From Escherichia coli phage AZ21: DNA of 64,000 bases. A model generated the notes under the pieces. That model worked only from the letters and a program-made list of their open reading frames with translations. It did no database searches and had not been told where the DNA came from. The DNA lies in sequence record LC788708.1; one strand, written 5' to 3'. The translations under genes and the position numbers were made by a program. This document shows positions 25,855 through 60,508 of this stretch, one piece after another. Each line of letters starts with the position of its first letter. Position 1 is the first letter of the stretch.

Positions 25855-26166
25855 CTACCAAATATCATCTTCCACCTGTAAAAGATGGGGCGAACAACCA
25901 TCATCCGGCACACGACATATGGCCAACCCACGTGGATGGAATATAGAGAAGTTTAGGGCAACAATCAAGCCCATAGCAGACAATTCATTCCAATCCAATT
26001 CCCATTCCCCTGCATATCCAGACAGGAAAACGCCAATGCAGGGATCATCTATTTGCTGCTCTGGAAAAGTGAAGGAGGCTTGTCTTACCCCCAACCAACG
26101 TTGTAGCAGCTTCTCAGCACGTTCCACTAAACTAGGGTCAATCTATCGCCAAAATACTCGTTCCAT
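25855..26166 (-). pseudogene. Amber-interrupted paralogue of the adjacent 142-aa gene
   Basis: RBS aaggagg then ATG GAA CGA GTA TTT TGG CGA TAG, continuing in frame as IDPSLVERAEKLLQRW...; downstream part aligns with residues ~30-100 of the 26176..26604 product (shared DDPCIG, MGLIVALN-type motifs). Confidence 0.5.
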
Positions 26167-26175
26167 TCTGCCTCC

Positions 26176-26604
26176 TTAAGCAGTTAAACCTGGGATGATA
26201 TACCCGAAACGTCGAAGTTTCTGAATCTCCTCATTTACTTCTTCCGGTGAGTAAGACCAACCGTAACGTTCATTAACCTGAAAACCAGGAGATTCACTAG
26301 TCTTATAGTTAACAACGAGGCGATGCTTAGCAGGCATAAACAGCTTATAGTTTAATGCAAAAACTAAGCCCATTTCATCTAACTCTTTCCAGCCAACAAT
26401 TTCTTCAAGACCCTCCTCTACCTGAACAATTAAACCAATACAGGGGGCCTCATCAATATCATCTTTAAAAGCAAAGGAGATTTCGTTATTTTCACACCAT
26501 ATTTTCAAGGAGTTAATAGCTTCATTATACAGGCTAGCTGGGAGAGTACGCCAAAAGTTAACCAAAATTGGGTTAGCTTCTTTAGAGAATACATTATTGA
26601 ACAT
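26176..26604 (-). CDS. Hypothetical protein (intact member of tandem paralogue pair)
   Basis: 142-aa ORF; paralogous to the interrupted copy downstream. Confidence 0.5.
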   Translation of the reverse strand: MFNNVFSKEANPILVNFWRTLPASLYNEAINSLKIWCENNEISFAFKDDIDEAPCIGLIVQVEEGLEEIVGWKELDEMGLVFALNYKLFMPAKHRLVVNYKTSESPGFQVNERYGWSYSPEEVNEEIQKLRRFGYIIPGLTA

Positions 26605-26606
26605 AT

Positions 26607-27113
26607 TTACACCTTAAATTGTTGTAAGGATTTACACATTTCAAGATCTGGGCTAAATTCTAGCATATAGCTAACAGCCATTAAATCTTGAAGATTTATC
26701 CCAGTCCTACCGTTGACTATAACTGTTGGATACTGATACATCATAGCACCAGCATCATCTAGCACACACCAATGTTTGAGCTTATGCTTTTCAACGAAGC
26801 GAAGAACAGAATTACCTCTAGATAGCCCACTCCCAGTAAAATCCGTTGTACCAAGAAAACGATCGATAAGGCCTAATCCGGTCATAATCTGAACGTTCTC
26901 CATCTCATTTTTGACAGAGAACCAAGATGATACTCCAACAATCATTATCGGAGAAGGACGAATAAAGTCCTGAAAAGCCTTGAGAAGCGGTTTGAAAACC
27001 CAGTCACTTCCAAAGAAAATCTTTTCATTATCAGGTGCATGATGGTGGGAGATGCTCGAATTGAGCACCCCATCAATATCTAGAAAAATAATTGGAGTAT
27101 TACTTATTTCCAT
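26607..27113 (-). CDS. HAD-superfamily phosphatase-like protein
   Basis: N-terminal IIFLDIDGVLN (HAD motif I DxDG) and C-terminal VLDDAG-type motif. Confidence 0.6.
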   Translation of the reverse strand: MEISNTPIIFLDIDGVLNSSISHHHAPDNEKIFFGSDWVFKPLLKAFQDFIRPSPIMIVGVSSWFSVKNEMENVQIMTGLGLIDRFLGTTDFTGSGLSRGNSVLRFVEKHKLKHWCVLDDAGAMMYQYPTVIVNGRTGINLQDLMAVSYMLEFSPDLEMCKSLQQFKV

Positions 27114-27309
27114 TTTTGTTCCTTTCTAAGAACGTATCATACTCAACCGTATCAACATATATAACACCATAGTCATCGGATTTATAGTCCATCTCCCACA
27201 GCTCACAGCGATAGCACCAACTACCATCTGCCCATACAAATATATCATCGGGATGTGTATAAACAGATTTAACTATGGACATATCTATTTCCCTTGCTTC
27301 TCGACACAT
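27100..27309 (-). CDS. Hypothetical protein
   Basis: 69-aa ORF overlapping neighbours at both ends. Confidence 0.4.
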   Translation of the reverse strand: MCREAREIDMSIVKSVYTHPDDIFVWADGSWCYRCELWEMDYKSDDYGVIYVDTVEYDTFLERNKNGNK

Positions 27310-28105
27310 AAGGTCTACCCTCTAAATGAGCTTCTACACGAGCAATAAAATCAGGGTCACTAAAAGCATCTACCGCACCTTTACTCCAGTAAGGGATACC
27401 GCGTTCTTCCAACTGGTACATCTCACTACGAGTCATACCTTGATAGCCAGGTTCTGCTGCGAGGGCACTATCATAGTAGTTAACAACCATAAGTTTCGCA
27501 GCAGTCAAATTAAGAACAGGAAATAATTCCCAGTAGAAGTTAATTACTTGGTTAGAGCAACCAACCACAATGATCATATCTTGACTGGTAATACCATCAA
27601 AAACATTATACATTTCTGCGTATGCAGGAGCACACTCCCCAAAGAAGATTACATTAGGTTTAACCCATTTATAATCATCTGGATCAATAGAATTGTATCC
27701 TACATCAATAATCCGTTTATTGCTACTATTGTAGCTATCAGCTACAACAACCTCTTTTAAATATCCGTGAATGTGCAGAATGTCACTATGTGGAACGCCA
27801 GCACGCTCAATAAGGTCATCAACGTTGGTAGTCAAGTTTACTACTTGACCTGGATATTGTTTATACCATTCACCAATACGCAAATGCGCAAGATTGGGTT
27901 CAACAGTTTTTAGCTCTTCACGACGCTTGTTGTAAAACATATGGGTTTTATGATAAAAATTACTACGAAAGGCATGAATATTACATACTTCTTCTAGATC
28001 ATAATCATCCCACAATGCTTTACCACTAGCAGTATCAGTACGGAAGGCTCGTACACCACTTTCAACACTCAAACCTGCACCACTAATAATAATTAATCTA
28101 CGCAT
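27269..28105 (-). CDS. Sir2 (sirtuin)-like NAD-binding protein
   Basis: GAGLSVESGVRAFR (sirtuin GAGxSxxSGIPxFR), TTNVDDL, HIHG (catalytic His), IFFGE, VVGCS; no zinc-ribbon cysteines seen. Confidence 0.65.
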   Translation of the reverse strand: MRRLIIISGAGLSVESGVRAFRTDTASGKALWDDYDLEEVCNIHAFRSNFYHKTHMFYNKRREELKTVEPNLAHLRIGEWYKQYPGQVVNLTTNVDDLIERAGVPHSDILHIHGYLKEVVVADSYNSSNKRIIDVGYNSIDPDDYKWVKPNVIFFGECAPAYAEMYNVFDGITSQDMIIVVGCSNQVINFYWELFPVLNLTAAKLMVVNYYDSALAAEPGYQGMTRSEMYQLEERGIPYWSKGAVDAFSDPDFIARVEAHLEGRPYVSRSKGNRYVHS

Positions 28106-28319
28106 TTTTCACCTGTTCTCTGAAGTTTTGCCCAATACTGTCTAATAGCTCAGCTAATTCTTTATTGCCTTTCCCCATTAAGGTATTAGCAATAACTTCT
28201 AGCATAGTAGCGCAGGATTCAACACCATCCTTATAGCCAGTTTCCCAGCGCTGCATTAATGCGTTTTCCAAAACAGCGTTTAAACCCTTATCTGGTAGCA
28301 TCGGCTTCGAGAATGCCAT
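28098..28319 (-). CDS. Hypothetical protein
   Basis: 73-aa ORF. Confidence 0.4.
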   Translation of the reverse strand: MAFSKPMLPDKGLNAVLENALMQRWETGYKDGVESCATMLEVIANTLMGKGNKELAELLDSIGQNFREQVKNA

Positions 28320-28491
28320 AAAGTTTCTCCTCTAGTTCCATGATACGACTTTCATAAGAGGCACGCAACTTTTCAATTGCCAGAGCACGCACTGTAATCT
28401 CATTAGAATTAATAGCTAATTGGGCCAGATCTTCTGTTTCCATACGTCCGTTGTAAATTAAGCGATATTTAAGATGTTTTACGTTTTTCAT
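28288..28491 (-). CDS. Hypothetical protein
   Basis: 67-aa ORF. Confidence 0.4.
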   Translation of the reverse strand: MKNVKHLKYRLIYNGRMETEDLAQLAINSNEITVRALAIEKLRASYESRIMELEEKLYGILEADATR

Positions 28492-28500
28492 TCTTGTTCC

Positions 28501-28782
28501 TTAGTTCTGTACTGTAAACTCATTCTTATCACAGTGAGCATAATAATACCCATACATACGATAAATTTTCACAGCCTTAGTAGACCCCTTCGATTCTTCA
28601 TAATCAATCCAGAGCCACTTGTCTTTACCTACATAATGTACCCGAAACTTCTTAACTTTCTTATCATTCCATGTTGCAACAACACGACGATAATCAAATC
28701 CTCCCAACCAATCTAGAGCCTTACGTTCTTCGCTAGGCTCTCCAAAATGGGAGACATCTACTTTAGGAAGCAACTCGCTCAT
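28501..28782 (-). CDS. Hypothetical protein
   Basis: 93-aa ORF; promoter box copy at 28785-28815. Confidence 0.45.
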   Translation of the reverse strand: MSELLPKVDVSHFGEPSEERKALDWLGGFDYRRVVATWNDKKVKKFRVHYVGKDKWLWIDYEESKGSTKAVKIYRMYGYYYAHCDKNEFTVQN

Positions 28783-28881
28783 AGCTTTCTCCTCTCAAAT
28801 TTATAAATCTATTATATATAAATTTTTGGCTGAAAGCAAATAAAATAAAAGCCAGGTCGACTAGCAACCCGGCTGATTAGC

Positions 28882-30729
28882 TTATTTAGCTCGAATATCC
28901 TGATGTTTCACTCTGCCCATCACCTCGTGCTGTTTGCCGGGGTTAAATGGACGAGCACCCGGATTTCCAAGATACCCACAAACTCGACGAGTTACTTCAA
29001 GAGTCTCAGGGTCATGATTACCACAGATAGGGCACTTAAATCCATCTTCGGATGCTATTGTTTCACCTAAGAATCCACATTTACCACAAGAATCCACTGG
29101 GGTATTAATACCGAAGTAATGAACCTTACTAGCAGCATAATTAATAACCCATTCCAGTGCATCTGGGAATCGTTTCATATCCGGTAGTTCTACATAGGAA
29201 ATGCACCCACCAGAAGCAATCGGAGTAAAGTTAGATTCATAATCAAATTTCACATTGGGAGCAACTTTACGTTCTACATCAAGGTGGTGCGAGTTAGTGT
29301 AGTATCCTTTGGACAGAATATCTTCATGCTCTGGGAAATATTCACGGTCTAGACGACAAAAACGGTCGCATAGGGATTCTGATGGTGTAGCATACAGACT
29401 ATAACCTAGTTTAGTTTCTTCCTTCTTCTGATCGACTCTATCCCGCATGTACTGCAATACACGCTGAACAAACTTGATGCAGGTCTCGGACATTGTGTCT
29501 ACATCTTTGCCAAACATGAACTGTAGCATTTCATGGCAGCCAATATACCCTAGAGATACAGAAGCACGGTTATAGAAATGATCGAATACATATTCCTCAG
29601 GCCCCAAGCGTAACCCAAAGGCTCCTGACATATAGAGGATGGGTGCAGCTTTAGCTTGAATGTATTTTAAGCGATCAACTCTCCACTCCAACGCTTTTAA
29701 TGCTGTATCCACACGTAGCTCAAGCAAATCAAAGAATAGGTCAATATTTCCTTCAGCTTCGATAGCAATTCTAGGCAAGTTTACAGAAACAACACCTAAG
29801 TTATTACGACCGGCAGTTTCACCATCTTCTGTAGCAGCTAGGAATGAACGGCAGCCCATAGAAACTTTATAGTCTCCAGTAACTTCTACAACCTTGTCAT
29901 AGCTGATATAATCTGGATACATACGTTCAGCAGTACATTTCATAGCTAACTTCTTGATGTCATAATTAACATCTCCTGGTTTCATGTTAACACCATCACG
30001 AAGTACAAATACCAGTTTCGGGAAGATAGCTGTACGTTTATTGATACCTAAACCATCCATGCGTACTTTCAGTATTGCCCTCTGTACTAGACGTGCTTCC
30101 CAAGAAGTTCCTAGACCAAAACCAAAGGTAATAAATGGACTCTGACCATTAGAGTTGAACATGGTATTGATTTCATATTCTAAACCCTGACAAGCGTCAT
30201 AGACTTCTTTTTCAGTCATCTCCGTAGCCATTACGGATGCTTTGGCCTCATCCTTAGTCCAACGTTTTGCAAACGCATGATTTTTATCATAGGATTTACG
30301 AACATAAGGGGCTAATACTTCATCAAGGCGATCTACAGAAGTACCACCATACTGATGGGAGCTAACCTGAGTGATAATCTGAGCAGTAATAGCCGCCGCA
30401 GTAGTAATAGAGTTTGGAGTGCTAATTTCAGCATTACCAACCTTCATACCATTCTTCAACATATCTTCCAGAGCTACCAGACAACAGTTAGTCATGCCTA
30501 ATGCAGCATAATCAGCATCATGGAAATGAATATCCCCAATCATATGAGCATTTCGAATCTGAATTGGCATTTCTTCTAGAATCAGATACTTACTCAATTC
30601 ACCTGCAAGCATATCCCTTTGTGTAGGGAAACGTTCTGAGGGTTTATTAGCATTATTAAACAGCAGCTCTTCATCTGCTGACCCTTCGATAATCTCTTTG
30701 CAGTTTCTAATCAATTCATCTTTGTTCAT
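28882..30729 (-). CDS. nrdD: Anaerobic ribonucleoside-triphosphate reductase (class III RNR)
   Basis: 615 aa; C-terminal zinc site CGKCGF...CPICG and glycyl-radical motif RRVCGYLG. Confidence 0.9.
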   Translation of the reverse strand: MNKDELIRNCKEIIEGSADEELLFNNANKPSERFPTQRDMLAGELSKYLILEEMPIQIRNAHMIGDIHFHDADYAALGMTNCCLVALEDMLKNGMKVGNAEISTPNSITTAAAITAQIITQVSSHQYGGTSVDRLDEVLAPYVRKSYDKNHAFAKRWTKDEAKASVMATEMTEKEVYDACQGLEYEINTMFNSNGQSPFITFGFGLGTSWEARLVQRAILKVRMDGLGINKRTAIFPKLVFVLRDGVNMKPGDVNYDIKKLAMKCTAERMYPDYISYDKVVEVTGDYKVSMGCRSFLAATEDGETAGRNNLGVVSVNLPRIAIEAEGNIDLFFDLLELRVDTALKALEWRVDRLKYIQAKAAPILYMSGAFGLRLGPEEYVFDHFYNRASVSLGYIGCHEMLQFMFGKDVDTMSETCIKFVQRVLQYMRDRVDQKKEETKLGYSLYATPSESLCDRFCRLDREYFPEHEDILSKGYYTNSHHLDVERKVAPNVKFDYESNFTPIASGGCISYVELPDMKRFPDALEWVINYAASKVHYFGINTPVDSCGKCGFLGETIASEDGFKCPICGNHDPETLEVTRRVCGYLGNPGARPFNPGKQHEVMGRVKHQDIRAK

Positions 30730-31387
30730 TAATTATTTCCTCAATAAACCTTGCTACTACTTCTGGCTCAATACTAAAAAATTCTGTAGCACCATCAAAA
30801 TCTTTATATTGACAATTATATTCCTTAAAATGTAGATGGGTTTCTCTCTCAATACGCATAGCTTTTGATCTATCTGAAAAGCTATACTCCTTAAATATTT
30901 TTAAATCATGTATGTTAGAAGAAGTTTTAATATCTCTGAGTCTATCTTTAGTTCTGCTAGACACACCTATTTTGGTCCCCACATTACTTACTAAAATATA
31001 TACGTTAGTAGGATAATTATCCTTTTCTAATAAACATATAGGACAACCAGAATTATGATTCCTAACACTATCGAGTGTAGACTCCCACCTATGATCATTC
31101 TCACAGCTAAACATGATTTTACTCTTGGAATTGATGTATTTACCTTCCATCTTTATTCCACGGGCAGCTAACGACTCATTTACTTCTTTAAGATCTAAAG
31201 TACGGCTAGCACAATAAGGGCAGCCCCTACCACCTTTTACGTTATCTACTCTAGCCTCCCAACTATGTCCATTAGAGCACTTAAATATAGCATTGGATTT
31301 AGCTGATATATACGTGCTTAGCATAACTATTCCTCTAGGAGCAAGTGCTAAGTTCACATCTTCTGTAGTTATTTTCTTTCTTACCAT
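30716..31387 (-). CDS. T5orf172 / GIY-YIG-like domain protein with tandem zinc-ribbon repeats (putative homing endonuclease)
   Basis: Two repeats FKCSNGHSWEARVDNVKGGRGCPYCA and FSCENDHRWESTLDSVRNHNSGCPICL; C-terminal NVYILVSNVGTKIGVSS...GATEFF; start overlaps nrdD by 14 nt. Confidence 0.6.
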   Translation of the reverse strand: MVRKKITTEDVNLALAPRGIVMLSTYISAKSNAIFKCSNGHSWEARVDNVKGGRGCPYCASRTLDLKEVNESLAARGIKMEGKYINSKSKIMFSCENDHRWESTLDSVRNHNSGCPICLLEKDNYPTNVYILVSNVGTKIGVSSRTKDRLRDIKTSSNIHDLKIFKEYSFSDRSKAMRIERETHLHFKEYNCQYKDFDGATEFFSIEPEVVARFIEEIINEQR

Positions 31388-44767: not shown

Positions 44768-44842
44768 CGGGGTGTAGTCTAAGGGAGAGGCAGGAGTCTT
44801 CTAAATTCCTTTATGCAGGTTCGAATCCTGTCACCTCGGCCA
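44768..44842 (+). tRNA. tRNA-Arg (anticodon UCU)
   Basis: Acceptor cggggtg/cacctcg, D-stem gtct/aggc, anticodon stem ggagt/attcc with loop cTTCTAa, T-arm gcagg-ttcgaat-cctgt, discriminator g, encoded CCA. Confidence 0.8.
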
Positions 44843-44876
44843 ATTTTATTAACTGTAACTAAAACAAAGGAAACAT

Positions 44877-45824
44877 ATGTTTAATACTAAAAATATGAAA
44901 GAATTGACTTCTGAGCAGAAAGTAATTCGTACTATTAAACGTTGGGGTATTGGTGCTGTAGTTGGTTTAGCAGGTTTAATCCTAGCTTTTAATTCGTATA
45001 CCATTGTTTCTGATGGTACGGTTAAAACCCAAACATTCCTGGGTAAAGTAGACCCTAATCCAGTATTACCTGGTTTCCATCTTGTAAACCCGTTTGCATC
45101 TTTCGATACTTTTAGTACGAAAGATATTTCTATGAAACTGGATAAACTTCAGGTTCCTAGCCAGGATAAGTTTAAGTCTACAGTTGACATTACCGTTATG
45201 TTGCAGTTTGATGGTGCTAAAGCTCCTATTAACCGTGTTAACGCAGGTACTCAGGATCAAGCTCTGAACAAGTACGTTGAAGAGAAGATGCTGTCTACGA
45301 TTCGTGAGTTTGGTAAGTCTGTACCAAAAGCACAAGATCTGTTCGACGCTAAGATTCAGGCTCAACTGCAAACCGCTATTCAGCAAGAAGTAGAAGAGTA
45401 TGCGCGTCCTTATGGCTACACCGTTAAGCAAGTATTCCTTCAGGATATTACTCTGCCACCGGTAATCATGGAACAGGTACAAAACACCAAAGTTCGTGAA
45501 GAACAAGTTAACGCTGCAAAAGCTGAACTAGCTCGTGTTGAACAAGAAGCACAGCAGAAAGTTAAGCAAGCTGAGGCTGATCGTTCTGCTCGTGAAAATA
45601 TGGCAGTAGCTAACGAACGTGACGCAGATGCTAAACTGTATGCGGCTAAGAAAGAAGCTGAAGCTAACACCGCTCTGCAGCGTACCATCACTCCAGAGAT
45701 GATTCGCTGGAAACAGCTGGAAGTTGATATGAAACGCGCTGAAAAATATCAGGGTGGCGTTCCTCAGACTGTTGTAGGTACTGGTTATGATGGCCAGATG
45801 ATTATGGATATGCGTAATAAGTAA
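44877..45824 (+). CDS. SPFH/band-7 (prohibitin/HflC-like) membrane protein
   Basis: 315 aa; N-terminal TM helix IGAVVGLAGLILAF, SPFH core, C-terminal coiled-coil. Confidence 0.65.
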   Translation: MFNTKNMKELTSEQKVIRTIKRWGIGAVVGLAGLILAFNSYTIVSDGTVKTQTFLGKVDPNPVLPGFHLVNPFASFDTFSTKDISMKLDKLQVPSQDKFKSTVDITVMLQFDGAKAPINRVNAGTQDQALNKYVEEKMLSTIREFGKSVPKAQDLFDAKIQAQLQTAIQQEVEEYARPYGYTVKQVFLQDITLPPVIMEQVQNTKVREEQVNAAKAELARVEQEAQQKVKQAEADRSARENMAVANERDADAKLYAAKKEAEANTALQRTITPEMIRWKQLEVDMKRAEKYQGGVPQTVVGTGYDGQMIMDMRNK

Positions 45825-45847
45825 TAGTTACACGTAATCTTCGAAAC

Positions 45848-45882
45848 AAGCCCGCGTTTCCTCCGAGAGCGCGGGCTTTTCT
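45848..45882 (+). terminator. Rho-independent terminator
   Basis: aagcccgcg-loop-cgcgggctt followed by ttctg. Confidence 0.7.
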
Positions 45883-46027
45883 GTATTTAAGGCAAAAGAA
45901 AAGCCCATAAGTTATTCAACTAAGGTCTTTAGTACTTAATTCTTTAGAATCATATACTATTATTGCAGCAACAACGTGCTACCACTAAATGCCCTACGAT
46001 TTTCCTCTAAAAAGTTAAAAAATTCGA

Positions 46028-46056
46028 TTGCTTGAATGCTAAATTCTCTGTATAAT
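46028..46056 (+). promoter_or_regulatory. Sigma70-type early promoter
   Basis: ttgctt-17 nt-tataat-atatttataaatttgagagagg. Confidence 0.7.
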
Positions 46057-46086
46057 ATATTTATAAATTTGAGAGAGGAATCAAAT

Positions 46087-46383
46087 ATGAAACGCATTGT
46101 ACTTGCATTGACTCTAGTATCTACTTCTGTATTTGCTGCTCCACAACAGGAACTTTGTCAAGTTCAAGTTTGTAATAAGCTAGAACGATTTACTTTGGAT
46201 ATTTGGTCACACATTAAAGATAATATGGGTGAGCAATGTTTTGATATTGTTCTGCCAAAAGAACAAGCTGTTCCTGGTGCTGTTCTCAGCTCAGAATCAC
46301 GTTGGTGGCAAGGTTCTTCTATCAATCCAACTAAGAAGTCAGTGACACGTATCAAACAAGTGTATCAGTGCAGTGTTCAGTAA
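46087..46383 (+). CDS. Small secreted Cys-containing protein
   Basis: Signal peptide MKRIVLALTLVSTSVFAAPQ; 98 aa; start at ATG with RBS gagagagg. Confidence 0.5.
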   Translation: MKRIVLALTLVSTSVFAAPQQELCQVQVCNKLERFTLDIWSHIKDNMGEQCFDIVLPKEQAVPGAVLSSESRWWQGSSINPTKKSVTRIKQVYQCSVQ

Positions 46384-46391
46384 AATTTCAC

Positions 46392-46420
46392 TTGCTTAAT
46401 GCCGAAATTTTCTATATAAT
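46392..46420 (+). promoter_or_regulatory. Sigma70-type early promoter
   Basis: ttgctt-17 nt-tataat. Confidence 0.65.
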
Positions 46421-46451
46421 ATATTCTATAAATTATAGATAGGAGTCATAT

Positions 46452-46970
46452 ATGACTGTTGACGAGTTAAAACAACATCTTTTATCTAGGGGCTTTGATA
46501 GTGATAAGTATCACTGTTGGCTCTCTCCACATGGATGGTTAACAGTTCCACTGTATGATTTCTCTGGCATGTTACGTGGATATCAAACATATAACCCTAG
46601 TGCAGCTAAAGGTCATGGAAAATGTCCTTCTGAAGCTAAATATTTTACGCATTCTTCTACTCAATGTCTATGGGGTTTAGAAACTCTTACAGGTAATGAA
46701 GACCTAGTATTAGTTGCAGAATCTGTATTTAAAGCTGTGGCACTACACAACGCGGGATATCCCGCACTAGCAATGCTAGGATCTTCCCCTAGCAAAGCAC
46801 TGCTAAAGCAGCTAAAATTACAACCTTTTAAAGTAGTAGCCGTAGGCGATAATGATTCTGCTGGTGAGAAGTTTGCTAAAAAACTAAATGGGTTTACTTC
46901 CCTCATGGATTTAGATGAAATGAATACAGAAAACTTGAAAAATTTTCTTGCCATGAAGCTAAATTTCTAA
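46452..46970 (+). CDS. Hypothetical protein with TOPRIM-like segment
   Basis: 172 aa; LVLVAESVFKAVAL...VVAVGDNDSAGEKFAKKL resembles TOPRIM acidic motifs; the downstream tRNA promoter -35 lies within its 3' end. Confidence 0.4.
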   Translation: MTVDELKQHLLSRGFDSDKYHCWLSPHGWLTVPLYDFSGMLRGYQTYNPSAAKGHGKCPSEAKYFTHSSTQCLWGLETLTGNEDLVLVAESVFKAVALHNAGYPALAMLGSSPSKALLKQLKLQPFKVVAVGDNDSAGEKFAKKLNGFTSLMDLDEMNTENLKNFLAMKLNF

Positions 46971-46976
46971 TATAAT
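46948..46976 (+). promoter_or_regulatory. Sigma70-type promoter for tRNA-Ser/tRNA-Met pair
   Basis: ttgcca-17 nt-tataat-atattcataaattt immediately followed by the tRNA 5' end. Confidence 0.65.
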
Positions 46977-46990
46977 ATATTCATAAATTT

Positions 46991-47084
46991 GGAAGATTAA
47001 CCCTAAAGGTAAGGGAGCTGTTTGCTAAACAGCCAGTAGCTGTGGAGACACGGTGTGCCAGTTCGAATCTGGCATCTTCCTCCA
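46991..47084 (+). tRNA. tRNA-Ser (anticodon GCU), class II with long variable arm
   Basis: Acceptor ggaagat/atcttcc (7 bp), anticodon stem gctgt/acagc with loop tTGCTaa, long variable arm, T-arm gccag-ttcgaat-ctggc, encoded CCA. Confidence 0.8.
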
Positions 47085-47089
47085 AATTT

Positions 47090-47167
47090 GGTTCTCAAGC
47101 TCATTTGGTATGAGCCGTCGCCTCATAAGCGAAAGGTAGGCAGGTTCGAATCCTCCGGGAGCCACCA
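47090..47167 (+). tRNA. tRNA with CAU anticodon (Met or Ile-lysidine type)
   Basis: Acceptor ggttctc/gggagcc, D-stem gctc/gagc, anticodon loop cTCATaa, T-loop ttcgaat, encoded CCA; one non-WC pair in each of the anticodon and T stems. Confidence 0.6.
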
Positions 47168-47186
47168 AATTAAATAAGGACAACTA

Positions 47187-47375
47187 ATGGAATTATTCAT
47201 AGTTTCTATTAAATTTGCACAAGATAGAGAACATTCGGACGAGTTTAAACAAGGGTACAGACTAGTAAAGGCTACATCTGAACTACATGCTATGGACAAA
47301 GTAGTAGACTATATGTATAAAGTAGAAGACGTTTACTACGTCAATGCTTTAGAAGCCTCAAAAGTAATTAACTAG
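47187..47375 (+). CDS. Hypothetical protein
   Basis: 62-aa ORF with RBS aaggacaactaATG. Confidence 0.45.
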   Translation: MELFIVSIKFAQDREHSDEFKQGYRLVKATSELHAMDKVVDYMYKVEDVYYVNALEASKVIN

Positions 47376-47383
47376 GAGACTAT

Positions 47384-47569
47384 ATGTCCAAATTTCAAGA
47401 ACTCAAGCAAGAGCTAGAAGAGTGTGCCTGCCCAAAATGCTTCGGAGTAGGTGAGTGGAACGATGCTGAACCCGGTGATACACGGTATAATACATACGTT
47501 TGTACATATTGTAATGGTTCTGGTATTAATCCTGAATGTGGTATTTCTCTAGACATTGAGCGAGGTTAA
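47384..47569 (+). CDS. Small zinc-ribbon-like Cys-rich protein
   Basis: 61 aa; CACPKCFG ... CTYCNGSG. Confidence 0.45.
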   Translation: MSKFQELKQELEECACPKCFGVGEWNDAEPGDTRYNTYVCTYCNGSGINPECGISLDIERG

Positions 47570-47909
47570 GATGGATATTTTTACTACTCCGGCAATAAAC
47601 CTTTTAGGTGTTGGCTTGTTCCAAGCTACGGTGTATCGTACTGATGATTCTACTGATGTGGTAACGTTCATCGTACCTGAGTTCTTCCTAGAAAAGTTCT
47701 TTGAAGAGTTTGAGCAGTTCCGTGAAGAACACAATGCTCATTCCGATATGGAAGATCTAGCAGCTATGTTCCCTGCGGTTTACGGCTATATCTTTGAAGG
47801 TAATGGCCTAGATCTTAATAAATCTGAACTCGTTGAACTTAACTGGGGCATCAATTTTGAAGTTGGCTCTCCATTCCCTCGATATTTCCAGGGTTTAGAG
47901 ATTCGCTAA
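47556..47909 (+). CDS. Hypothetical acidic protein
   Basis: 117-aa ORF overlapping the upstream stop. Confidence 0.45.
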   Translation: MSEVKMDIFTTPAINLLGVGLFQATVYRTDDSTDVVTFIVPEFFLEKFFEEFEQFREEHNAHSDMEDLAAMFPAVYGYIFEGNGLDLNKSELVELNWGINFEVGSPFPRYFQGLEIR

Positions 47910-47917
47910 GATTACAT

Positions 47918-47994
47918 GGGGGTGTAATCGAATTGGCATAGGTACTGGACTTAAAATTCAGGTTTTGTGGGTTCGAATCCCACCACCCCTACCA
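47918..47994 (+). tRNA. tRNA with UAA anticodon (Leu by anticodon) but class I short variable arm
   Basis: Acceptor gggggtg/cacccct (7 bp), anticodon stem ctgga/ttcag with loop cTTAAaa, 5-nt variable loop, T-arm gtggg-ttcgaat-cccac, discriminator a, encoded CCA. Confidence 0.6.
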
Positions 47995-48009
47995 AATTAA
48001 GGAAATAAA

Positions 48010-48132
48010 ATGAAAGCTATTAAGAAAGCACTGCGTAAATTTATGTATTGTCGTTTTCATAGCATCAAGGCTTCAACTAATGGTACTACTTACGATCGCT
48101 ATGATCCTAAGTTTGGCTTACATTCTAAATAA
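48010..48132 (+). CDS. Possible small basic peptide (40 aa)
   Basis: RBS aaggaaataaaATG; below the ORF-track cutoff. Confidence 0.3.
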   Translation: MKAIKKALRKFMYCRFHSIKASTNGTTYDRYDPKFGLHSK

Positions 48133-48145
48133 CTGGAGAAAACAA

Positions 48146-48352
48146 ATGGCTAATCCTGAAATTACGGCACAACGCTTTATGCTGAAAGGAATTATTGCTG
48201 AAGCAGGCATGACAGAAGAAGTTGCAGATTTTCAAAAGCAATTCCTCAATATTCTCACTCAAGCCAAAGAGCTAGGAGAGAAAGAACATGGCGCGGCTAT
48301 TATGGCAATCACATTGGTTGGGCTTGATCTGGCTGAAGAATCAGGAGTTTAA
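48146..48352 (+). CDS. Hypothetical protein
   Basis: 68 aa from MANPEITAQ with RBS ctggagaaaacaaATG. Confidence 0.45.
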   Translation: MANPEITAQRFMLKGIIAEAGMTEEVADFQKQFLNILTQAKELGEKEHGAAIMAITLVGLDLAEESGV

Positions 48353-48382
48353 CTCCTCCAAGCAGAAATTTTAAAAATGTAC

Positions 48383-48412
48383 TTGCTTTTTGCTTAAGAT
48401 TTCTGCTATAAT
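48383..48412 (+). promoter_or_regulatory. Sigma70-type early promoter
   Basis: ttgctt-18 nt-tataat-agttatataagttgatgagagg. Confidence 0.6.
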
Positions 48413-48441
48413 AGTTATATAAGTTGATGAGAGGAATCAGA

Positions 48442-48717
48442 ATGTTAAAACGTTTTGCAGCAACTGGTATTGAAAGCTCAGTATGTAAATCCTGGGGTGG
48501 TTGGGAAGGTGAGATCGAGTGGCTTCAGTTCTACAATGTAGAACTTCTTCCAGAGATCAAAGCTCAATGTATTGAGGCTGGTATGGCTCCTGATGCTACG
48601 GCTGATGTTGAAATCAGCATGAATAAGCTAGAGGGTCGAGTAGTCACTGTTACTGATGAAGGTGAAGAGGTATTCGAACTTCCATTCACTTTGAAAGTCA
48701 CTCCTTCATTTGATTAA
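48442..48717 (+). CDS. Hypothetical acidic protein
   Basis: 91 aa from MLKRFAAT. Confidence 0.5.
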   Translation: MLKRFAATGIESSVCKSWGGWEGEIEWLQFYNVELLPEIKAQCIEAGMAPDATADVEISMNKLEGRVVTVTDEGEEVFELPFTLKVTPSFD

Positions 48718-48753
48718 CTGATACAGCACTGAGCAAGTTCTTTAAAATTTGAC

Positions 48754-48782
48754 TTGCTCAGTGCCTTAAAACTTGATATAAT
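48754..48782 (+). promoter_or_regulatory. Sigma70-type promoter upstream of tRNA-Tyr
   Basis: ttgctc-17 nt-tataat. Confidence 0.55.
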
Positions 48783-48847
48783 ATTTATCTAATTTGGAAA
48801 CATATTTAAAAGTGTTTAAATGAGAATTTTTGAATACTTCTAAATAT

Positions 48848-48935
48848 GGGCGTTTATTCCGTAAGTGGTAGCGGAGGGGATTGTAAATCCCTGGTCATTG
48901 CGACTCGAGTGGTTCGACTCCATTAACGCCCACCA
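48848..48935 (+). tRNA. tRNA-Tyr (anticodon GUA), class II
   Basis: Acceptor gggcgtt/aacgccc (7 bp), D-stem tccg/cgga, anticodon stem gggga/tccct with loop tTGTAaa, long variable arm, T-arm agtgg-ttcgact-ccatt, encoded CCA. Confidence 0.75.
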
Positions 48936-48952
48936 AATTAAAGGTAAAGGAT

Positions 48953-49144
48953 ATGTATATTGATCGGATAATTCAAGAAGCTGCAAATAGGGGTATTATA
49001 CAGTTGGGTTCACCCGCTGATATAAATAAAGATCTAATATTAGAAAGCCTCACATTTGGTACAGCTAACTTTGGTCGCGATAGTAATCGTCGATATAGCT
49101 TGAAGTTATCTGCACTATCTTTTATCAAGTATAACAAATTATAG
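48953..49144 (+). CDS. Hypothetical protein
   Basis: 63-aa ORF between two tRNAs; stop overlaps the next tRNA 5' end. Confidence 0.4.
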   Translation: MYIDRIIQEAANRGIIQLGSPADINKDLILESLTFGTANFGRDSNRRYSLKLSALSFIKYNKL

Positions 49145-49218
49145 TTAGTTGGCAGAGTGGTTATGCACCTCCTTCATACGGAGCGACTACAGTGGTTCAA
49201 CTCCACTACTAACTACCA
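49143..49218 (+). tRNA. tRNA with CAU anticodon (second copy; Met/fMet or Ile2)
   Basis: Acceptor agttagt/actaact (7 bp), anticodon stem ctcc/ggag with loop tTCATac, T-arm agtgg-ttcaact-ccact, encoded CCA. Confidence 0.7.
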
Positions 49219-59121: not shown

Positions 59122-59987
59122 TTATGAAAAAAGAATTTAATGTACATAAAACTCTAGTAGTGCCTGATGATGCCAACTTGTTTTTCGTTGGTGATATTCA
59201 TGGATGCAATGATTTGCTAGAAGATGCGTTGAAGTTAGCTGGGTATAATAGCAAAAAAGATTGCGTAGTATGTGTCGGAGACTTAATAGACCGAGGCACA
59301 CAAAACCTACAAGTTTTAGCCAAATTCCTGTATAATCCACGTTTTATCAGTGTACGTGGTAATCATGACCAATTTATGATTGTAGGAGATTGGGCTAATT
59401 GGATGTATAATGGTGGTATGTGGGCTATGAATGAACTAGATGCAGACACCATTAAAAATATTGCCGAAGATATGGCTGAAAAAATGCCAGTATTCCTAAC
59501 TGTTAGACATCGTGGTAAGAAGTTTGGTGTTGTTCATGGTGGTGTACCTTTTACGTACAAAGAATGTGGTAATGAAGTAGAAACCCCAGTATGGGATAAT
59601 CTTATTGCACAAATAGAAGCAGCTAAGGAAAACCCACATGACCATCCTGAATACCATATTGAACCATATTTATGGGATCGAGATGTAATCCAAGAAATAG
59701 GCTTCTACTTGTCCAAAAATGGTGAGGAACACCCGTATTTCCAGCGTTATGCAGGATTTAAAGAAAAATACATGGTAGAAGTGCCAGAAGTTAAAGGTGT
59801 AGATTTCGTGTTTCACGGACATACTGGAGTTCCTTACCCACTTCTTTATAAGAACCGTGTTTATCTTGATACTGGCGGTGTTTTCAACGGGCAGTTGACG
59901 GTTGCGCAAGTTAACGATGAAACTGGCAAAATCACCACATTTACCACAGATAAAAATAATAGCTGCGGTGTACAGAGGATTCTTTAA
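59112..59987 (+). CDS. Ser/Thr protein phosphatase (calcineurin-like metallophosphatase)
   Basis: FFVGDIHGC, VGDLIDRG, RGNHD motifs. Confidence 0.75.
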   Translation: MGIIMKKEFNVHKTLVVPDDANLFFVGDIHGCNDLLEDALKLAGYNSKKDCVVCVGDLIDRGTQNLQVLAKFLYNPRFISVRGNHDQFMIVGDWANWMYNGGMWAMNELDADTIKNIAEDMAEKMPVFLTVRHRGKKFGVVHGGVPFTYKECGNEVETPVWDNLIAQIEAAKENPHDHPEYHIEPYLWDRDVIQEIGFYLSKNGEEHPYFQRYAGFKEKYMVEVPEVKGVDFVFHGHTGVPYPLLYKNRVYLDTGGVFNGQLTVAQVNDETGKITTFTTDKNNSCGVQRIL

Positions 59988-60508
59988 TGAAAGTTCGCTT
60001 TTGGAGTGATCTCCACTTGGGGCATGCAAATATTACTAAATTCAGACCAATCTTCTCTACTATGGAAGAGCATGATGAATTTATTATGGATACTATTACA
60101 TCTATGAAAGATAAGCGTACAGTATTCTATATTTTAGGAGACGCATTTGTATCTAGAAATGGTTTGGAGAAGTTCGAAAAACTCTTTGGCAATGTTAGAA
60201 CTACGTTAGTTTTGGGAAACCACGACTTAGAACGAGAAGGATTATCTTTCAAAGACTTAATAGGGGTTGTAGATAATGTACAATCACTAGTTAAATATAA
60301 AAACTTCTGGCTTTCCCATGCTCCAGTGCACCCTGGGGAGCTGAGGGGTAAAAAGAACCTACATGGACATACTCACTTTGAGTTAATGGGAGACCCTCGT
60401 TATATTAACGTTTGTATCGAGTATGCAAAATCTCCAGTACGCCTGGAAGACATCATGAGTGGTAAGTACACTTCACATGATAAAACTAGCTGGATGTTAA
60501 ATGTCTGA
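59987..60508 (+). CDS. Second calcineurin-like metallophosphoesterase
   Basis: SDLHLGH, ILGDAF, LGNHD, HGHTH motifs. Confidence 0.65.
   Translation: MKVRFWSDLHLGHANITKFRPIFSTMEEHDEFIMDTITSMKDKRTVFYILGDAFVSRNGLEKFEKLFGNVRTTLVLGNHDLEREGLSFKDLIGVVDNVQSLVKYKNFWLSHAPVHPGELRGKKNLHGHTHFELMGDPRYINVCIEYAKSPVRLEDIMSGKYTSHDKTSWMLNV

What the first reader, a model, noticed from the sequence alone, without database searches (positions are those of the whole stretch)
26607..28105. Sir2-like NAD-binding protein adjacent to a HAD-family phosphatase in the early region
ORF 27269..28105 has the sirtuin core motifs (GAGLSVESGVRAFR, TTNVDDL, HIHG, FFGE, VVGCS) but lacks the usual zinc-ribbon cysteines. Two genes downstream is a HAD phosphatase (FLDIDGVLN). 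Sir2 domains are common NAD-consuming effectors in bacterial defence, and phages are known to manipulate NAD pools, so a phage Sir2/HAD pair could act in host takeover, protein deacylation or ADP-ribosylation, or NAD-metabolite processing. The function cannot be derived from sequence alone.
Basis: partly seen in the sequence, partly recalled or inferred. Interest (0 to 1): 0.55.

Follow-up and report, generated by a model that had tools for sequence, protein, structure and literature searches.

The report
Phage T5 sirtuin and HAD phosphatase pair
This is the well-known Sir2-like gene of T5-type phages, a zinc-less relative of the bacterial deacylase CobB, sitting beside a small HAD phosphatase; the pairing is real and conserved but already published, and its biochemical job (a predicted role in RNA repair) is still untested.

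Summary
ORF 27269..28105 (-) carries every quoted motif, has no cysteine pairs in the small domain, and is a full-length PF02146 sirtuin (E 4e-25). ORF 26607..27113 (-) is a capless HAD phosphatase of family HAD_SAK_2 (E 5e-20), one small gene away.

The window is 100% identical to Tequintavirus AZ23. The genes are T5.102, annotated "putative Sir2-like protein" in the T5 record, and T5.105. Sequence, model and fold search place the sirtuin in class III (CobB/SIRT5), with the catalytic His, Asn/Asp and the Y-x-x-R pair invariant. It matches no defence-type Sir2 model.

The Sir2/HAD link recurs in five Sir2 lineages, once with the gene order swapped. Each partner also sits separately beside Rnl1 RNA ligase, a kinase, cREC and a calcineurin-like phosphoesterase in other phages. 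Iyer et al. 2022 described exactly this neighbourhood in Tequintavirus SP15 and predicted KptA-like removal of RNA 2'-phosphates.

I adopt that as the best reading (confidence 0.4). Ordinary protein deacylation is a close rival (0.33), because the catalytic core looks like an unmodified CobB and this phage has no RNA ligase or kinase.

Verdict: already known, with the function open. Interest 0.3.

The parts
27269..28105 (-). Zinc-less class III sirtuin (orthologue of T5.102), 278 aa
   Evidence: PF02146 E 4e-25. phrog_2162 E 7e-121. CobB 1S5P is the best match by sequence (1e-17) and by fold (TMt 0.85). AF2 pLDDT 88.3. G9 A10 G11 S13 F21 R22 Y58 R61 N94 D96 H113 G114 F154 F155 E157 are invariant in 42 homologues.
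27100..27309 (-). Small acidic ORF (about 60 aa from the second ATG at 27282; orthologue of T5.104), motif DDxxxWxDGxWCY, overlapping both neighbours
   Evidence: phrog_5116 E 9e-30, no Pfam hit. Lies immediately downstream of Sir2 in five Sir2 lineages, including HAD-less and non-T5 phages. pI 4.4.
26607..27113 (-). Capless (C0) HAD phosphatase, family HAD_SAK_2 (orthologue of T5.105), 168 aa
26176..26604 (-). DUF7415 protein (orthologue of T5.106), next gene in the same unit
   Evidence: PF24187 E 5e-36. Follows the HAD or Sir2 in five of the six T5-like Sir2 lineages surveyed.
25855..26127 (-). Second, shorter DUF7415 protein (T5.107-like)
   Evidence: PF24187 E 1e-26.
28098..28782 (-). Three small upstream ORFs (28501..28782, 28288..28491, 28098..28319), tightly packed ahead of Sir2 in the same unit
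   Evidence: phrog_7953, phrog_5236 and phrog_5827, all of unknown function. The last one overlaps the Sir2 start.
28850..28874 (-). Terminator-like hairpin after nrdD, marking the upstream edge of the unit
   Evidence: 10-bp stem, 6 GC pairs, T-run. The T5 record annotates a terminator and a promoter at the equivalent place.
59987..60508 (+). Calcineurin-like phosphoesterase; a possible distant partner
   Evidence: E 3.5e-21 to the phosphoesterase family that sits beside Rnl1/kinase/Sir2 in ~145 kb phages. Pfam Metallophos. The same family carries an inserted HAD_SAK_2 domain in P0160.

Best explanation
The sirtuin and the HAD phosphatase are the T5-type form of a phage NAD+-dependent RNA-end processing module. 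They are made early, from one transcription unit. The sirtuin binds NAD+. An oxygen nucleophile on the substrate attacks ribose C1'' and expels nicotinamide. The catalytic His113 then activates the ADP-ribose 2''-OH to resolve the adduct. In the proposed reaction the nucleophile is an RNA 2'-phosphate, as in KptA/Tpt1, and the products are a 2'-OH RNA and ADP-ribose 1'',2''-cyclic phosphate. The capless HAD then removes a terminal 2'/3'-phosphate from the RNA, or the phosphate from the ADP-ribose by-product. Together they would restore tRNA or mRNA ends cut by host nucleases. Shown here: the family and fold assignments, the intact catalytic residues, and the conserved linkage. Inferred: the substrate, and therefore the whole pathway. 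The idea is Iyer et al. 2022's, not mine.
For: Linkage of Sir2 and HAD. They are adjacent or overlapping in T5-likes (clades 0 and 2), in L036 (Sir2 61% identical, HAD 43%), in L003 with the order swapped to HAD-small-Sir2, and 2.4 kb apart in distant L061.

Sir2 in other phages. The window's Sir2 is 57-65% identical to Sir2 of ~145 kb phages. There it is embedded in the series Metallophos, Rnl1, cREC_REC, AAA_33 kinase, Sir2, ATP-dependent DNA ligase, MazG-like; this holds for 5-6 Sir2 lineages depending on the family and is Pfam-confirmed. In the 608 kb contig L064 an Rnl1 gene lies two genes upstream.

HAD without Sir2. The HAD sits with Rnl1, kinase and Metallophos in Vibrio Demerecviridae PG07. 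It lies 0.7 kb from rnlA in Aeromonas phage PX29, and 4 kb from Rnl1/Metallophos/kinase in L004. In P0160 a HAD_SAK_2 domain is inserted into that same Metallophos family. A member of this Metallophos family is in the window.

Other points. The genes overlap within one unit. The HAD is capless, the type that usually takes macromolecular substrates (established knowledge of HAD cap classes). The Y58/R61 anion-binding pair is invariant. The published prediction is in PMC9503650.
Against: All support is contextual; no assay exists.

The catalytic core is indistinguishable from a protein deacylase. FFGE, H113, N94/D96 and Y-x-x-R are as in CobB/SIRT5, whose known substrates are acyl-lysines.

No sirtuin is known to me to act on nucleic acid.

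The whole AZ23 genome has no Rnl1-type ligase, kinase, cREC-neighbour set or MazG, so heal-and-seal cannot be completed by phage genes alone.

Both proteins are acidic: pI 5.6 each, clade medians 5.2 and 5.6. This is unlike what I recall of basic Tpt1 enzymes.

Klebsiella T5-likes keep Sir2 without the HAD.

The neighbourhood is also simply the nucleotide-metabolism block: nrdD lies near Sir2 in 8 lineages.
Confidence: 0.4

Rival explanations
1. It is an ordinary NAD+-dependent protein lysine deacylase: a phage copy of CobB able to remove acetyl and acidic acyl groups such as succinyl. It would reset the acylation state of host or phage proteins during takeover. The HAD is then either an unrelated neighbour or a protein phosphatase, making the pair two erasers of protein modifications.
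Against: It does not explain why Sir2 and the HAD each recur beside RNA ligase, kinase and cREC genes in unrelated phages. The protein scores far below NCBIfam CobB cut-offs (101 bits against 243). The second substrate loop is changed from CobB's V-Y-P to V-I-N-F (the CobB residues are as given in PMC5107563; phage residues V187, I188 and F190 are invariant). A phage-specific D(I/V)GY motif sits in the small domain. The host already has CobB.
Confidence: 0.33
2. The pair processes NAD+-derived small molecules rather than macromolecules. For example, it could consume NAD+ or ADP-ribose-type immune signals, with the HAD dephosphorylating a phosphorylated ADP-ribose or nucleotide product, as a counter-defence or as part of an NAD-salvage circuit.
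For: In L004 the HAD is next to PRPP-synthetase-like and NAPRTase-family genes. A PRS-like gene lies within 6 kb of Sir2 in ~145 kb phages, and NAMPT lies next to Sir2 in L063. Iyer et al. allow that the HAD may process the ADP-ribose cyclic-phosphate by-product.
Against: There is no similarity to the NADase-type Sir2 of defence systems. T5-type phages need NAD+ for their own split LigA/LigB ligase, and this genome has no NAD-salvage genes. Capless HADs are less typical for small substrates. The acyl-lysine-type tunnel residues are conserved.
Confidence: 0.12
3. The loss of the zinc site has inactivated the sirtuin. It survives as an NAD-binding or structural protein, or as a decaying gene.
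For: There are no zinc cysteines. The Sir2 allele is swapped freely between near-identical backbones.
Against: The catalytic and NAD-binding residues are invariant across 42 sequences with 55-86% identity to the window protein. The small domain is still predicted as a confident beta-ribbon, pLDDT about 88-95. Homologues are kept in 1007 phage records.
Confidence: 0.03

Closest known systems
Phage T5 gene T5.102 'putative Sir2-like protein' with T5.104 and T5.105 (AY543070), and the 'sirtuin + Swiss-army-knife-like HAD' neighbourhood of Tequintavirus SP15 in Iyer et al. 2022 (PMC9503650)
   Same: Orthologous genes. Sir2 is 94% identical, the small ORF 97% and the HAD 97% to T5, in the same order and the same transcription unit. 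SP15 belongs to the same genus.
   Different: Nothing of substance. T5 has a second, weakly related small ORF (T5.103) between Sir2 and the HAD.
E. coli CobB and human SIRT5 (class III sirtuins, NAD+-dependent lysine deacetylase/desuccinylase)
   Same: Same fold (TMt 0.85 to 1S5P). GAGxS, NxD, HG and FGE motifs are present, as is the Y-x-x-R pair.
   Different: About 25% identity. No Cys4 zinc site. V-I-N-F replaces CobB's V-Y-P loop (CobB residues per PMC5107563). D(I/V)GY motif in the small domain. About 60-residue C-terminal extension. Below NCBIfam CobB cut-offs.
Zinc-less Sir2/CobB of KVP40-like Vibrio phages (Skliros et al. 2016, PMC5107563)
   Same: Phage sirtuins for which the loss of the zinc ligands was already noted. 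The paper lists T5 as carrying a homologue. About 36-41% identical to the window protein.
   Different: Different phage family. There the discussion links the gene to NAD salvage and deacetylation of acetyl-CoA synthetase.
KptA/Tpt1 RNA 2'-phosphotransferase
   Same: Proposed functional analogue. It is NAD+-dependent, expels nicotinamide, and uses an ADP-ribose 2''-OH attack. It occurs in RNA-ligase contexts (reaction chemistry from established knowledge).
   Different: Unrelated fold (ADP-ribosyltransferase superfamily); there is no homology. The activity of the phage sirtuin on RNA is untested.
T4 polynucleotide kinase/phosphatase, HAD phosphatase domain
   Same: A capless DxDxT-type HAD acting on nucleic-acid 3' ends. 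It appears among the weak fold matches (2IA5).
   Different: Only a remote structural match (E 0.14). The phage HAD stands alone, without a kinase domain.
Defence Sir2 NADases (ThsA, DSR1/2, SIR2-HerA, SPARSA)
   Same: Sir2 superfamily; they consume NAD+.
   Different: No match to PADLOC models or to SIR2_2. This protein is encoded by the phage rather than the host, is a single domain, and has no sensor domain.

Membership tests
Sirtuin (Pfam SIR2, PF02146) | Full-length match above the gathering score | tested here: met
   89.1 bits against a cut-off of 24; profile positions 1-178 of 180.
Sirtuin (Pfam SIR2, PF02146) | NAD-binding and catalytic residues: GAGxS, F/R of the xFR motif, N and D of TxNxD, His of HG | tested here: met
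   G9 A10 G11 S13 F21 R22 N94 D96 H113 G114 are invariant in 42 homologues.
Sirtuin (Pfam SIR2, PF02146) | Cys4 zinc ribbon (CxxC...CxxC) in the small domain | tested here: not met
   No Cys in residues 113-157, and none paired in the 42-sequence clade. Distant phage relatives L062 and L064 keep the pairs, so the loss is derived.
Sirtuin (Pfam SIR2, PF02146) | Rossmann domain plus small-domain fold | tested here: met
   AF2 pLDDT 88.3, pTM 0.86. Foldseek top 50 hits are all sirtuins, with CobB at E 1e-17.
Class III sirtuins (CobB/SIRT5) | Y-x-x-R pair that binds acidic acyl groups | tested here: met
   Y58 and R61 (FYNKRR) align to CobB FYNARR and are invariant. The role of the pair is from established knowledge.
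CobB equivalog (NCBIfam NF040867 / PRK00481) | Score above the curated cut-off | tested here: not met
   Best score 100.8 bits against a cut-off of 243.
Class III sirtuins (CobB/SIRT5) | NAD+-dependent lysine deacylase activity | not testable with these tools
   Needs an enzyme assay. No report was found.
Defence-type Sir2 NADase | Match to SIR2_2 or PADLOC Sir2 models, with an attached sensor domain | tested here: not met
   Only PF02146 matched. No PADLOC hit. Single-domain protein.
HAD superfamily / HAD_SAK_2 (PF18143) | Family match plus motifs I (DxDxV), II (S/T), III (K/R) and IV (DD) | tested here: met
   72.7 bits against a cut-off of 27.5. D12, D14, S63, R99, D119, D120 invariant.
HAD superfamily / HAD_SAK_2 (PF18143) | Capless (C0) core | tested here: met
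Phage sirtuin RNA-repair neighbourhood, type 3 of Iyer et al. 2022 | Phage-clade sirtuin adjacent to a SAK-like HAD, with no Macro-domain partner | tested here: met
   Adjacent in the window and in 30 of 63 Sir2-bearing loci surveyed, with one more 2.4 kb away. No Macro domain among the Pfam-scanned members of the transcription unit. SP15 is a Tequintavirus.
Phage sirtuin RNA-repair neighbourhood, type 3 of Iyer et al. 2022 | RNA 2'-phosphotransferase (KptA-like) activity | not testable with these tools
   A prediction only.
KptA/Tpt1 | ADP-ribosyltransferase-type fold | tested here: not met
   The fold is a sirtuin Rossmann fold. Any resemblance is functional only.

The most novel reading that the evidence does not exclude
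The phage-clade sirtuin is the first sirtuin whose natural substrate is RNA. It would use NAD+ to strip 2'-phosphates (or a related end modification) from cleaved tRNA or mRNA. In T5-type phages, which lack their own ligase and kinase, it would work with the capless HAD to regenerate clean 3' ends for host enzymes, as a counter to tRNA-cutting defence systems. The tightly linked ~60 aa acidic protein could be its regulator or specificity subunit.
Probability: 0.3. Interest if true: 0.7.

Novelty: already known. Interest (0 to 1): 0.3.

Why it matters
If the published prediction is right, sirtuin chemistry would extend from proteins to RNA, and phages would gain a second NAD+-dependent route for repairing RNA cut by host defences. 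T5 is a tractable model in which to test this. As a finding from this window, though, it adds no new object. The gene has carried a Sir2-like annotation since the T5 genome record (AY543070). It has its own PHROG family. The Sir2/HAD neighbourhood in this very genus was described in 2022.

- the independent Rnl1 context of the HAD family;
- the fusion of a HAD_SAK_2 domain into the phosphoesterase family;
- the swapped gene order in one lineage;
- the Sir2 allele replacement between near-identical backbones;
- the conserved small partner ORF;
- the absence of a ligase or kinase in this genome, which constrains the model.

Tried and rejected
**Defence-type Sir2 NADase.** Rejected: only PF02146 matches and PADLOC gives nothing.

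**Homology between Sir2 and the HAD.** This was suggested by phrog_18062 hitting both proteins. Rejected: hhalign probability is 1.3%. The PHROG is the C-terminal half of the HAD, mislabelled 'Sir2'.

**Domain fusions of HAD_SAK_2 with a ligase or kinase.** The top 150 representatives are standalone proteins, tandem HADs, or one phosphoesterase fusion.

**RNA ligase, kinase, MazG or PRPP-synthetase genes elsewhere in this phage.** None, apart from one weak P-loop hit at E 0.0016.

**Promoter scan.** Not above shuffled expectation, so not used.

**Experimental literature on phage sirtuins.** None found in the held library. The Burroughs & Aravind 2016 paper that defines SAK proteins is not held.

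**Phage alia (Justusliebigvirus) neighbourhood.** Sir2 there sits among unannotated genes and was uninformative.

Full report
**What is there**

The minus strand between 28782 and 25855 carries a run of tightly packed, partly overlapping ORFs:
- three small ORFs of unknown function;
- a 278 aa protein at 27269..28105;
- a 69 aa ORF at 27100..27309, whose likely true start is the second ATG at 27282;
- a 168 aa protein at 26607..27113;
- two DUF7415 proteins.

Its only cysteines are C41, C158 and C183, so the segment that normally holds the zinc-binding CxxC...CxxC has none. The protein matches Pfam SIR2 over the whole profile (E 4e-25) and nothing else.

The 168 aa protein has FLDIDGVLN at residue 10 and matches HAD_SAK_2, the 'HAD domain in Swiss Army Knife RNA repair proteins' (E 5e-20).

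**Where it comes from**

The region is 100% identical to Escherichia coli phage AZ23, a Tequintavirus, and 445 phage records share it at the DNA level. In T5 itself (AY543070) the orthologues are:
- T5.102, 'putative Sir2-like protein; NAD-dependent deacetylase, ADP-ribosylase';
- T5.104, the small ORF;
- T5.105, a 'conserved hypothetical protein'.

These are 94%, 97% and 97% identical to the window proteins.

The T5 record annotates a terminator after nrdD, a promoter before T5.100 and a terminator after T5.107. That makes one unit from T5.100 to T5.107. The window has the matching hairpin at 28874..28850.

**The sirtuin**

By sequence, the best solved relatives are E. coli CobB (1S5P, E 1e-17), archaeal Sir2Af1 and SIRT5. 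An AlphaFold model built on 42 homologues is confident (pLDDT 88.3, pTM 0.86). The weak spots are residues 26-29 and the last eight residues; the former is the stretch I would equate with the mobile cofactor loop of sirtuins. Foldseek returns only sirtuins, with CobB first (E 1e-17, TMt 0.85).

Across 42 homologues that are 55-86% identical to the window protein, the following stay invariant:
- G9 A10 G11 S13 F21 R22, the NAD site;
- N94 and D96;
- H113 and G114, the catalytic His;
- F154 F155 E157, the FGE loop;
- Y58 and R61.

Y58 and R61 align with CobB FYNARR. This is the Y-x-x-R pair that, from established knowledge, binds the carboxylate of succinyl- or malonyl-lysine in SIRT5 and CobB.

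The protein is thus a catalytically intact class III sirtuin. It is nevertheless not a CobB equivalog, scoring 101 bits against NCBIfam's cut-off of 243. It also resembles no defence-system Sir2.

The zinc loss is derived. Distant phage relatives L062 (CEAC...CPCC) and L064 (CTAMGC...CPAC) keep the cysteine pairs, whereas the clade containing T5, and also L061 and L063, have lost them. All of them share a D(I/V)GY-type motif in the small domain. The small domain is still predicted as a confident beta-ribbon.

**The phosphatase**

Eighteen homologues keep D12 and D14 (motif I), S63 (motif II), R99 (motif III) and D119 and D120 (motif IV). The model (pLDDT 94.6) shows the HAD core with only the flap hairpin and no cap.

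**Is the pairing meaningful?**

I fetched 59 Sir2 loci from IMG/VR plus others and sorted their Sir2 proteins into 24 lineages at 75% identity. The HAD is adjacent in several settings:
- both T5-like Sir2 alleles;
- L036 (Sir2 61% identical, HAD 43%);
- L003, where the order is HAD-small-Sir2 instead of Sir2-small-HAD;
- distant L061, where a HAD_SAK_2 gene lies 2.4 kb downstream.

In four T5-like loci the small ORF is missing and the HAD start overlaps the Sir2 stop. Klebsiella T5-likes keep Sir2 but lack the HAD. The link is thus recurrent but not obligatory.

**Wider context**

In five to six lineages of ~145 kb phages (depending on the gene family), whose Sir2 is 57-65% identical to the window's, the gene is embedded in the following series, with a PRPP-synthetase-like gene nearby (Pfam-confirmed):
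- calcineurin-like phosphoesterase;
- Rnl1 RNA ligase;
- cREC_REC;
- AAA_33 kinase;
- Sir2;
- ATP-dependent DNA ligase;
- MazG-like protein.

Contig L064 (608 kb) has Rnl1 two genes upstream of Sir2, and L063 has NAMPT directly upstream.

Independently of Sir2, the HAD family also keeps RNA-repair company:
- it sits with Rnl1, the kinase and the phosphoesterase in Vibrio Demerecviridae PG07;
- it lies 0.7 kb from rnlA, and near a CCA-adding enzyme, in Aeromonas phage PX29;
- it lies next to PRS-like and NAPRTase genes, and 4 kb from Rnl1, in L004.

A search of 1.8 billion representatives found mostly standalone or tandem HAD_SAK_2 proteins. One fusion, P0160, has the HAD inserted into that same phosphoesterase family. 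A member of this family is in the window at 59987..60508.

These results independently reproduce what Iyer, Burroughs, Anantharaman and Aravind reported in 2022. They describe a distinct phage sirtuin clade in three neighbourhood types. [quoted passage not shown] They interpret it as KptA-like removal of RNA 2'-phosphates (PMC9503650). SP15 is a Tequintavirus.

**How it most likely works**

I adopt the RNA-end processing model as the best-supported reading, at 0.4. The sirtuin would use NAD+ in a reaction whose chemistry parallels KptA/Tpt1:
1. an oxygen nucleophile on the substrate attacks C1'';
2. nicotinamide leaves;
3. the ADP-ribose 2''-OH resolves the adduct.

The HAD would then clear a terminal RNA phosphate or the phosphorylated ADP-ribose by-product. 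Only the family assignments, the intact active sites and the linkage are shown here. The substrate is inferred.

The main rival, at 0.33, is plain protein deacylation. The catalytic core shows no departure from CobB/SIRT5. I know of no sirtuin that acts on RNA. Both proteins are acidic. The complete AZ23 genome has no Rnl1, kinase, MazG or PRS gene, so the phage cannot heal and seal RNA on its own.

Processing of NAD-derived small molecules is possible (0.12). However, the phage depends on NAD+ for its own split ligase. An inactive relic is very unlikely, given the invariant catalytic residues.

**Novelty and verdict**

This is already known. The gene carries a Sir2-like annotation in the T5 genome record and has its own PHROG family. 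Its lack of zinc ligands was noted for related Vibrio phage proteins, in a paper that also lists T5 (PMC5107563). The Sir2/HAD neighbourhood and its RNA-repair hypothesis are published.

I found no experimental test in the held literature, so the biochemical question is open and T5 would be a good place to answer it. Interest: 0.3.

Noticed in passing
window 27100..27309 (-); also L003 7603..7788, L038 8719..8949, L057 8791..8982: A ~60 aa acidic protein (pI 4.4; motif DDxxxW(A/P)(D/N)G(S/T)WCY; phrog_5116; no Pfam hit) always lies immediately downstream of Sir2 and overlaps it. This holds in five Sir2 lineages, including HAD-less and non-T5 phages, so it tracks Sir2 more tightly than the HAD does. 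It is missing in four T5-like loci and weakly duplicated in T5 (T5.103/T5.104). It could be a regulator or partner of the sirtuin.
   Followed up: partly
window 27269..28105 compared with L048 8001..8852 and L044: Allele replacement confined to Sir2. L048 has NrdD 98%, the 93 aa ORF 99%, the HAD 89% and the helicase 90% identical to the window, but its Sir2 is only 52% identical. The window's Sir2 is closer (57-65%) to that of ~145 kb phages than to this other T5-like allele.
   Followed up: partly
window 26607..27113 (HAD residues 77-168): phrog_18062, labelled 'Sir2 (NAD-dependent deacetylase)', is actually the C-terminal half of the HAD (E 4e-56). This explains why many GenBank and RefSeq records of T5-like phages annotate two 'Sir2' genes. 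Profile comparison shows no homology between the HAD and Sir2.
   Followed up: yes
window 59987..60508 (+): A calcineurin-like phosphoesterase of the same family that accompanies Rnl1, the kinase and Sir2 in other phages. In metagenomic protein P0160 this family carries an inserted HAD_SAK_2 domain. Here it lies about 32 kb from the Sir2/HAD pair, beyond the tRNA cluster.
   Followed up: partly
window 25855..26604 (-): Two tandem DUF7415 proteins follow the HAD, and follow Sir2 directly in the HAD-less T5-likes. Some records call them 'exonuclease' without visible support. The second copy is shorter here (90 aa) than T5.107.
   Followed up: no
window 44768..49218 (+): A cluster of six tRNA genes (Arg-TCT, Ser-GCT, Met-CAT x2, Leu-TAA, Tyr-GTA), as expected for a T5-like phage. 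It is relevant background if the Sir2/HAD pair serves tRNA maintenance.
   Followed up: no
L004 6001..9519: In a ~150 kb-type phage contig the HAD_SAK_2 gene is followed by a PRPP-synthetase-like gene and a 594 aa NAPRTase-family gene. From memory, this pair resembles the phage NAD+ reconstitution enzymes Adps and Namat; I did not verify that.
   Followed up: no
window 30716..31387 (-): A T5orf172/MUG113-type (GIY-YIG-like) gene overlaps the start of nrdD. Its counterpart in L044 is only 44% identical, which suggests a mobile homing-endonuclease-like insert.
   Followed up: no
L001 (PP892525.1): Escherichia phage vB_EcoS_I14 is filed under Ounavirinae; Felixounavirus in GenBank. Yet its 2.8 kb Sir2/HAD segment is 96.6% identical to this Tequintavirus-type window and its flanking genes are syntenic. 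This is probably a taxonomy mislabel.
   Followed up: no
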